The notes under the pieces were generated by a model. That model saw nothing but the letters and a program-made list of their open reading frames with translations. It ran no database searches and was not told the origin of the DNA. A program made the position numbers and the translations under genes. Of a stretch of 64,000 nt of DNA, positions 5,118-5,759 are shown piece by piece. This DNA comes from an uncultured Chlamydiae bacterium (GTDB lineage: Bacteria > Chlamydiota > Chlamydiia > Chlamydiales > JAJFMB01). The stretch covers positions 3,072,001-3,136,000 of the forward strand of contig CAVOJR010000001.1 of assembly GCA_963696295.1 (NCBI GenBank), in the 5' to 3' direction. Every line of letters begins with the position of its first letter. Within the stretch, counting starts at the first letter, position 1.

Positions 5118-5759
5118 TTACTTAACAAAAGTGATGGCTCCCCCGCCAAATCTGGCTCCGGCATTCCCGGCTGGCTGGCTGAAATCGTCCGCCTTTTCAT
5201 GCACGATCAGGGCGCGGCCGGCAATATTGTACTTGCCTCCGCTGAGAAAAATCCCCGGAACGAGCAGATCGAGGGTGGCGTTGCCATTCTCGTCGGCGGT
5301 GATGTTTCCGAAATCCCCGGCGTGGGCTTTATAGAAACCCTCTGTGACGACATAGCCGTGTTTGGTATCATTGGGATTGTAATGGGCTCCGGCGGCATTG
5401 CCATGGTCGCTGACGTCGCCATATTCGTGCACATGAAAACCGTGCTTGCCTGGGGTGAGCCCTTGCAGATTAGCAGATACTTTTAAACCCTCGGTGTTTT
5501 CCGTGAAAGTAACCACTCCGCGGACTTTGGAGTTTGAGGTTAAAGGCATGATTATGGCTCTGCCTTTTTCCAGTTTGCCGGTCTTGTGCTGCGCTTTTTC
5601 GCATCCGAACATCAGGAGCGCGATTAAAATATACCCAAATAACTTGAATAGTTTTTGTCCGGAACGAGCGACCATTGCCGATAGGCAAGGCACGAGTGAG
5701 GACGAAACGCCCAAAACCAACTCTTCAAGTTGTTTGGGTATAAATCCAAGATACCTCAT
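5118..5759 (-). CDS. sodC: Cu/Zn superoxide dismutase lipoprotein with an in-frame palindromic insertion in its signal peptide
   Basis: HGFHVHE, AHYNP, HG, HAGDFGNI, IVHEKADD and GNAGAR motifs; lipobox LMFG-C; GGAGG RBS before ATG at 5759. Confidence 0.92.
   Translation of the reverse strand: MRYLGFIPKQLEELVLGVSSSLVPCLSAMVARSGQKLFKLFGYILIALLMFGCEKAQHKTGKLEKGRAIIMPLTSNSKVRGVVTFTENTEGLKVSANLQGLTPGKHGFHVHEYGDVSDHGNAAGAHYNPNDTKHGYVVTEGFYKAHAGDFGNITADENGNATLDLLVPGIFLSGGKYNIAGRALIVHEKADDFSQPAGNAGARFGGGAITFVK
5630..5742. mobile_element. ERIC-like MITE inserted in frame in sodC
   Basis: Terminal inverted repeats TATACCCAAATAACTTGAA (5630-5648) / TTCAAGTTGTTTGGGTATA (5724-5742), TA at both ends; inner 56 bp differs at 2 positions from 19453-19508. 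Confidence 0.85.

What the first reader, a model, noticed from the sequence alone, without database searches (positions are those of the whole stretch)
5630..5742. ERIC-like palindromic element inserted in frame into the SodC signal peptide
Seen: a 113-bp element with 19-bp terminal inverted repeats (1 mismatch), TATACCC...GGGTATA, has TA at both ends. Removing it and one TA deletes 111 bp (37 codons) and gives MRYLGFILIALLMFG-C, a textbook lipoprotein signal. Its inner 56 bp recur with 2 mismatches in intergenic DNA at 19453-19508. The insert places new basic residues (RSGQKLFK) before the h-region, so export may survive. Established: ERIC repeats have TATACCC/GGGTATA ends with TA duplication, and Rickettsia palindromic elements insert in frame into genes. 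Inference: an analogous protein-invading repeat family in a chlamydial genome.
Basis: partly seen in the sequence, partly recalled or inferred. Interest (0 to 1): 0.85.

Follow-up and report, generated by a model that had tools for sequence, protein, structure and literature searches.

The report
IS630-driven hairpin element inside chlamydial SodC
A small hairpin-shaped jumping element sits in frame inside the export signal of a superoxide dismutase of an environmental chlamydia, one of about a dozen such protein-lengthening copies in this genome, and its ends match those of IS630 transposons, which gives a testable answer to how such Rickettsia-style protein-invading repeats move.

Summary
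Window 5630-5742 is a 113-bp palindrome that adds exactly 37 codons after codon 6 of sodC; the closest orthologue lacks just those residues. It is a twice-deleted copy (-30, -21 bp) of a 164-bp element, net 162 bp = 54 codons. Twelve copies sit in frame in ORFs of this genome (CarB, HemD, an NRPS, NfeD and others), seven within the first 15 codons. All 9 internal indels of in-gene copies are multiples of 3, against 11 of 31 intergenic ones. The family occurs in 43 of 151 Chlamydiota genomes. It is not ERIC or RPE1 by sequence. IS630 transposons of other chlamydiae carry ends up to 21/26 identical to this copy's end, which makes them the likely mobiliser; this genome has no IS630. A sister subfamily has a 3-bp TNA duplication (net 163 bp) and is almost never in genes. 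The upstream ATG has a strong ribosome-binding site, so the insert is probably translated; export is untested. It works like the Rickettsia RPEs. I found no printed description for chlamydiae, but this scan noted the same kind of event in other chlamydial genomes before.

The parts
5630..5742 (-). 113-bp palindromic element, an internally deleted (-30 and -21 bp) copy of the 164-bp family A; net insert 111 bp = 37 codons (residues 7-43 of SodC)
5630..5653 (+). terminal inverted repeat (TA|TACCC...), 22/24 complementary to the other end
5719..5742 (-). terminal inverted repeat; 21/26 identical to an end of IS630 elements in two other chlamydial genomes
5118..5759 (-). sodC, Cu/Zn superoxide dismutase, 213 aa from ATG 5759; metal ligands and active-site Arg retained
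5764..5768 (-). Shine-Dalgarno GGAGG before ATG 5759 (-9.5 kcal/mol; 3.7% of 2086 long ORFs reach this)
5743..5759 (-). original n-region of the signal peptide (first six codons), upstream of the insert
5601..5630 (-). original h-region and lipobox with the Cys (now residue 53), downstream of the insert
5673..5675 (-). in-frame ATG inside the element, no Shine-Dalgarno (+1.9 kcal/mol); the rival start
19434..19554 (-). second, truncated intergenic copy of the same family (model positions 1-127 of 164)

Best explanation
The segment is a non-autonomous miniature transposon (MITE) of a family spread through environmental Chlamydiota and moved in trans by IS630-family transposases. It inserts at TA in A/T-rich DNA and duplicates it. 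The full element adds 162 bp (54 codons) and is stop-free in three of six frames, so about half of hits in genes keep the frame. One copy landed after codon 6 of sodC and later lost 30 and 21 bp, each in frame. Translation most likely still starts at ATG 5759 and gives a 53-residue signal whose n-region is rebuilt by the basic end of the insert. The extension sits on the part that signal peptidase removes, so the mature enzyme would be unchanged. SHOWN: insertion, size, family, in-frame copies, 3n indels, N-terminal bias, IS630 end match. INFERRED: IS630 as mover (about 0.8), translation from 5759 (about 0.75), survival because of selection on the reading frame (about 0.85), export still working (about 0.55).
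For: Gap of exactly 37 residues against P0002. 12 of 13 copies found inside G000 genes read through, against about 52% expected from TA phase for family A (p 0.003; copies). 9 of 9 internal indels in in-gene copies are 3n, against 11 of 31 in 16 intergenic copies (Fisher p 0.0012). 7 of 12 lie in the first 15 codons against 5-8% expected (p about 1e-5). In independent metagenome contigs 4 of 33 scorable copies are in frame, 0 split a gene, and 3 of the 4 are N-terminal. Inserts are confirmed against orthologues in CarB and HemD. ATG 5759 has a -9.5 site, the internal ATG none. IS630 ends: L377 both ends, L372 and L378 one end each score 19.5-24.0 on the family's end profile, reached by 0-3 of 301,618 background TA sites; 21/26 identity to this copy's end. 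An IS630 with TA|TAC ends is present in 15 near-identical copies in G152, which also holds five identical element copies. The RUP/IS630-Spn1 precedent rests on the same kind of evidence (PMC2229807).
Against: No expression or protein data were available. G000 itself has no IS630, nor has G164 with at least 19 element matches. Most of the 30 IS630 loci examined have weaker end matches, and no element shares internal sequence with an IS630. The 3-bp TNA duplication of the sister subfamily is not what IS630 is known for (own knowledge). The CarB insert is net +50, not +54 residues, and the HemD copy lacks one end, so a clean TA duplication is shown only for sodC. The host CarB has many other in-frame deletions and lacks the C-terminal domain, so it may be decaying. 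The 3n test is partly circular for copies with a single deletion; only sodC, NfeD and DUF2608 have two. A crude hydropathy test did not show more signal peptides than chance among the N-terminal hits (3 of 7, p 0.11-0.18). The protein collection's own gene call for this locus starts at ATG 5612, after the insert (P0001).
Confidence: 0.7

Rival explanations
1. The insert is in frame but translation starts inside it (ATG 5675) or after it. From 5675 the element itself would supply a basic n-region and put the Cys at position 25, a normal lipoprotein signal; the rest would be a 5' hairpin leader.
For: A start at 5675 gives a normal-length signal. Di Nocera et al. warn that many N-terminal repeats may be extragenic (PMC3733652 passage). 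A family-B end supplies GAGG plus a GTG restart at a frameshifted Na/Pi cotransporter gene in G000. Computed accessibility of the two starts is similar, 0.41 and 0.34.
Against: ATG 5675 has no Shine-Dalgarno (+1.9) and lies in the inner hairpin, while 5759 has -9.5. One in-frame deletion and the TA junction lie upstream of 5675 and still keep the frame. N-terminal copies in DUF6492, NfeD and DUF2608 have no internal ATG yet stay in frame.
Confidence: 0.14
2. The insert is translated but export is impaired or the gene is dispensable: in-frame copies persist by drift in an intracellular bacterium, without the proteins working normally.
For: The Cys at 53 is far beyond the 17-24 residues usual for Sec signals (PMC8262980 passage). 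The insert carries two acidic residues and a weak hydrophobic stretch (max 2.0). SodC is patchy in relatives, 12 of 41 genomes. Host CarB looks eroded.
Against: All metal ligands are kept and the domain is 75% identical to P0002 with no stop. Both later deletions are 3n. A natural 46-residue signal still exports BKC-1 (PMC8262980 passages). An RPE-bearing Gmk is made and active (PMC2229807).
Confidence: 0.12
3. The element does not move by a DDE transposase but as a folded single strand (HUH/Y1 enzyme, or an RNA route); the IS630-like ends are ancestral relics or coincidence.
For: The whole element is a conserved hairpin: 38 of 56 pairs show two-sided changes, 22 of 25 in the inner helices 2-4. 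A Y1 transposase gene ends about 120 bp from the second window copy. Longer members are nested hairpins.
Against: That Y1 belongs to an IS605-type element whose second copy has no repeat beside it; 0 of 4 Y1 loci of G015 have one; G009 and G026 have many repeats and no Y1 match. TA duplication and end matches fit IS630. The structure was derived from the same alignment, and palindrome arms can be homogenised without selection on structure (own knowledge).
Confidence: 0.1
4. It is simply an ERIC (or RPE) copy acquired from another phylum.
For: Ends resemble ERIC (ERIC end in the top 0.1% of TA sites on the family profile). Interior alignment to two E. coli ERIC copies gives z about 3 in one orientation only.
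Against: No blastn match in 20,395 E. coli records. No covariance-model match in K-12, no nhmmer hit to six ERIC-pattern loci. 164 bp against 127 bp. RPE1 model TIGR01045 finds nothing in G000. No NCBIfam model matches five element frames.
Confidence: 0.04

Closest known systems
Rickettsia palindromic elements (RPE-1 to RPE-3; Ogata et al., seen only through PMC2229807, PMC10969869, PMC3767692, PMC3733652)
   Same: 100-170 bp palindrome, long stem-loop, open frames, in-frame insertion into unrelated housekeeping genes of an intracellular bacterium, N-terminal cases included.
   Different: No match to the RPE1 model; another phylum; clear TA duplication; a candidate transposase family with matching ends (the papers read name none for RPE); a sister subfamily with a 3-bp duplication that stays out of genes.
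ERIC / IRU / RU-1 of enterobacteria (PMC2229807, PMC2759123)
   Same: TATAC...GTATA ends, TA duplication, hairpin, occasional in-frame fusions; faint interior resemblance.
   Different: 127 bp against 164 bp (net 125 against 162, so whole ERIC shifts the frame); no profile or blastn match; ERIC is mostly intergenic.
RUP of Streptococcus pneumoniae with IS630-Spn1 (PMC2229807)
   Same: TA-targeting MITE tied to an IS630 by similarity of the ends; also lands in transposase genes (L210).
   Different: RUP has stops in all six frames and is intergenic; this family has three open frames and decorates proteins.
YPAL/RU-2 of Yersinia (PMC2759123)
   Same: [quoted passage not shown]
   Different: No TA ends, variable duplication; it helps create a signal in a hypothetical ORF rather than splitting the signal of a conserved enzyme.

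Membership tests
MITE (non-autonomous IS derivative) | short, no transposase, terminal inverted repeats | tested here: met
   113/164 bp, 22/24 TIR
MITE (non-autonomous IS derivative) | dispersed multiple copies with unrelated flanks | tested here: met
   61 merged loci in G000, some of them chance matches; five identical copies in G152
MITE (non-autonomous IS derivative) | target-site duplication | tested here: met
   TA at both ends in 49 of 59 T-type copies; net 111 of 113 bp against P0002 at protein level. No DNA-level empty site was found
IS630-associated MITE | ends match those of an IS630 element | tested here: met
   L377, L372, L378: 21-22/26 to family ends
IS630-associated MITE | cognate transposase present in the same genome | tested here: not met
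   none in G000; present in 4 of 5 other element-rich genomes
IS630-associated MITE | mobilisation by that transposase | not testable with these tools
   needs a transposition assay
ERIC/IRU/RU-1 | TATAC...GTATA ends with TA duplication | tested here: met
ERIC/IRU/RU-1 | 127-bp consensus sequence similarity | tested here: not met
   no match (nhmmer); only z about 3 by global alignment
Rickettsia palindromic elements | in-frame insertion in conserved genes (behaviour) | tested here: met
Rickettsia palindromic elements | sequence match to RPE peptide models | tested here: not met
   TIGR01045 0 matches in G000 (no Rickettsia among the controls); no NCBIfam hit for 5 frames
Rickettsia palindromic elements | DNA-level similarity to RPE copies | not tested
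   no Rickettsia DNA was fetched
Rickettsia palindromic elements | decorated protein is made and active | not testable with these tools
   no RNA holder listed
REP/TIRtron (Y1-associated) | repeats flank a Y1 transposase gene | tested here: not met
   1 of 7 Y1 loci has a copy nearby, outside that IS's own end
IS982-derived MITE | ends match IS982 TIRs | tested here: not met
   IS982 ends in G114 and G015 differ
Lipoprotein signal peptide (SPase II) | basic n-region, h-region, lipobox Cys near residue 15-35 | tested here: inconclusive
   h-region and Cys intact and conserved, but the Cys is at 53 from ATG 5759 (25 from ATG 5675); no predictor was available

The most novel reading that the evidence does not exclude
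A phylum-wide superfamily of IS630-driven hairpin MITEs in Chlamydiota, with modular inner hairpins on shared arms, in which a one-base difference in target duplication (TA, net 162 bp, against TNA, net 163 bp) decides whether a subfamily can live inside proteins. The frame-keeping branch survives mainly in signal peptides, where its basic or SD-bearing ends rebuild the export or start signal it disrupted, so secreted and surface proteins are routinely made with 25-55 extra residues that are then cut off. ERIC may be a distant branch of the same IS630 lineage, which would name its long-missing mobiliser.
Probability: 0.3. Interest if true: 0.78.

Novelty: new variant of a known kind. Interest (0 to 1): 0.58.

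Why it matters
Protein-invading palindromes were described as a Rickettsia/Wolbachia oddity whose mover is unknown. Here an unrelated-looking family does the same across environmental chlamydiae and has IS630 transposons with matching ends, so mobility can be tested directly. The TA/TNA pair offers a natural test of whether insert length alone lets selfish DNA enter genes. The sodC copy asks how far a lipoprotein signal can be stretched. Practically, gene callers mis-start such genes (P0001 begins after the insert and loses the signal).

Tried and rejected
Rfam: four chance matches, E 2.5-8.7. E. coli genomes: no match; plasmids: two short chance matches. Viral contigs: 0. Sequencing runs: no RNA holder listed. 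Laid DNA contigs: three 151-base pieces in run X1 match the sodC region almost exactly and one crosses the junction at 5630; X1 may be the source sample, so it is not independent. No empty-site joint was seen, and the one joint matches another short copy of the family. Candidate movers rejected: Y1/IS605 neighbour, IS5-type PF13586 (1 of 5 genomes, no end match), IS982. Search for an autonomous long element: 22 solo arms in G000 and 63 unpaired arms in metagenome loci; 27 of 31 listed ORFs behind them were scanned, none a transposase. Apparent in-frame copies rejected as intergenic because the host starts downstream: kdsA, a sulfotransferase-like ORF, a plasmid ORF. Signal-peptide enrichment beyond the N-terminal bias: not shown. 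The AlphaFold model shows a confident SOD barrel and low confidence for residues 1-34; it says nothing on export. Promoter/terminator scan: nothing informative. Two look-ups of earlier findings, by sequence and by a narrower word set, returned nothing; the same-genome note is unrelated.

Full report
OBSERVATION. It folds far better than shuffles (z -4.92). It lies in frame in a Cu/Zn superoxide dismutase gene and encodes residues 7-43 counted from ATG 5759. The closest orthologue among 1594 hits (P0002, 75%) has a 16-residue signal that matches the host residues on both sides of the insert with no length difference; the 12 orthologues aligned (12 of the 120 listed) all lack the segment, as do 11 loci from relatives. 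The net insert is thus 111 bp, as a TA duplication predicts. The enzyme domain keeps its His/Asp ligands and Arg. The host is a chlamydia by inference from Hc1 and from the titles of records that hold the element.

THE FAMILY IN THIS GENOME. The sodC copy is a 164-bp family-A element that lost 30 and 21 bp. A sister family B has the same ends and another inner hairpin. Together they give 61 merged loci, some of them chance matches or single arms. A full copy adds 162 bp and is stop-free in three of six frames. Twelve copies read through in frame: an NRPS/PKS (thioesterase region), DUF6492, a glycosidase-like protein, CoiA, an LplT-like transporter, an unknown 561-aa ORF, HemD, a glycosyltransferase-like protein, CarB, NfeD, DUF2608 and sodC. 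Orthologue alignments confirm the insert for CarB (net +50 residues, at E. coli 336-339) and HemD (one end lost); the other nine rest on frame continuity and, for eight of them, a Pfam or NCBIfam match elsewhere in the ORF. One B copy shifts the frame at codon 2 of a Na/Pi cotransporter, where its end supplies GAGG and a GTG. Three apparent cases were rejected as intergenic. With a crude set of 2354 genes, 52% of family-A insertions at TA should read through; 12 of 13 do (p 0.003). 5-8% should fall in the first 15 codons; 7 of 12 do (p about 1e-5). Flanks are A/T-rich. All 9 internal indels in 6 in-gene derivatives are 3n, against 11 of 31 in 16 intergenic ones (p 0.0012; partly circular for single-deletion copies). 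By eye six of the seven N-terminal hits are signal peptides, but a hydropathy cut-off passed only 3 of 7 against 18-22% expected (p 0.11-0.18). The host CarB has many further in-frame deletions and lacks its C-terminal domain, so its function is uncertain.

DISTRIBUTION. A covariance model from 24 copies matched 43 of 151 Chlamydiota genomes including G000, and 0 of 27 in family f36, whose 1.0-1.2 Mb genomes suggest Chlamydiaceae (inference). 38 of 56 predicted pairs show two-sided changes (the structure came from the same alignment). Outer arms are shared while inner hairpins differ (164, 174 bp and nested longer forms). Of the 117 loci, 89 had both ends: 49 of 59 T-type copies have TA at both ends, and 24 of 30 N-type copies have a 3-bp direct repeat TTA/TAA/TCA/TGA, net 163 bp. 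Among those with long enough flanks, 11 of 54 T-type and 1 of 29 N-type lie in frame in an ORF (p 0.049; many N copies come from one genome, and the one N case lacks the 3-bp repeat). In 121 metagenome loci, 63 elements had both ends; 5 long and 25 short-flanked ones were dropped; of 33, 4 are in frame, none splits a gene, 3 of the 4 are N-terminal. Hosts elsewhere include carbonic anhydrase, ManC, MutL and a Na/H antiporter.

MOVER. G000 has no IS630. The Y1 gene beside the second window copy belongs to an IS605-type element whose other copy has no repeat; IS5-type and IS982 ends do not match. IS630 is present in 4 of 5 element-rich genomes. In G152, which holds five identical element copies, 15 near-identical IS630 matches are listed; in the loci examined both ends begin TA|TAC and one end scores in the top 0.008% of TA sites. 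Relatives of that transposase occur in 22 of 300 Chlamydiota genomes. Among 30 loci, 5 had no ends in view and several calls were poor, but L377 (both ends), L372 and L378 match the family's ends at 21-22/26, and the other end of L372 resembles the N-type ends at up to 19/26. I looked at several IS families before this one, but a score reached by 0 of 301,618 background sites survives that. Mobilisation itself is inferred.

TRANSLATION AND EXPORT. ATG 5759 has a Shine-Dalgarno of -9.5 kcal/mol, reached by 3.7% of 2086 long ORFs; ATG 5675 inside the element and ATG 5612 have none. The hairpin begins 17 bases after the start. The insert ends in R..K..K just before the h-region, so the order basic-hydrophobic-Cys is kept, with the Cys at 53. 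No expression data could be had.

COMPARISON AND PRINT. It works like the RPEs but fails the RPE1 model; it has ERIC-like ends but fails ERIC membership. Papers seen: PMC2229807 parts 1-2 of 3; passages of PMC10969869, PMC3733652, PMC2759123, PMC9769881, PMC3184786, PMC8262980, PMC3767692; the Ogata originals were not read and no supplement was opened (the additional files of PMC3733652 could list chlamydial repeats). Nine searches showed no description of such a family in chlamydiae; two reviews have no 'Chlamyd' passage. The library lacks most subscription journals. Earlier notes of this scan report in-frame palindromic elements in tsaE, tsaB, menA, marC and other genes of other chlamydial genomes; I did not check whether they are this family.

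VERDICT. Real, RPE-like, a new variant of a known kind; the IS630 link and the TA/TNA contrast are the new parts. Interest 0.58.

Noticed in passing
window 5121-5600 (-), sodC: This SodC and its close relatives lack both cysteines of the disulfide that is nearly universal in Cu/Zn SODs (aligned to human SOD1; shared by P0002-P0012, while P0013/P0014 keep the second Cys): a possibly disulfide-free clade.
   Followed up: partly
window 18947-19312 (+) and upstream: IS200/IS605-type tnpA with a divergent tnpB-like gene, 98% identical to a second copy at G000:C1:781182-782268; its end lies about 60 bp from the truncated element copy.
   Followed up: yes
window 3498-3795: Four tandem 75-bp units (97% alike), open in two frames, overlapping the 3' end of a Lys/Ala-rich 432-aa ORF (3770-5068, no Pfam match).
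   Followed up: no
G000:C1:1963615-1963734 and 1712451-1712514: Family-B ends carry an outward GAGG six bases before a GTG or ATG and seem to supply the ribosome-binding site of the next gene, rescuing a frameshifted Na/Pi cotransporter.
   Followed up: partly
L030 (G000:C1:2392826-2395642): CarB with many small in-frame deletions, a 47-residue gap in the oligomerisation domain and no C-terminal allosteric domain, yet an open frame next to carA.
   Followed up: partly
L349 (G152) end against L189: One end of the G152 IS630 is 16/20 identical to the end of an E. coli ERIC copy; a lead for the mobiliser of ERIC.
   Followed up: partly
G000:C1:2629574-2629849 and 2884230-2884640: Element copies expanded by tandem duplication of their own arms.
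   Followed up: no
G000:C1:113108-113207, 165724-165821, 879156-879261: A third, related hairpin family with other ends, weakly matched by the family-B profile.
   Followed up: no
L021 (G000:C1:28632-44303): A 5223-aa hybrid NRPS/PKS gene in a chlamydia, carrying a 48-codon element copy near its thioesterase end.
   Followed up: no
L255, next to the matched arm: A motif that I recall as an RPE-1-type terminus sits beside a family arm upstream of gyrA/parC; recalled, not tested.
   Followed up: no
L208:2191-2357: Another 167-bp palindrome with CTAG ends beside an IS982 in G114, unrelated to this family.
   Followed up: no
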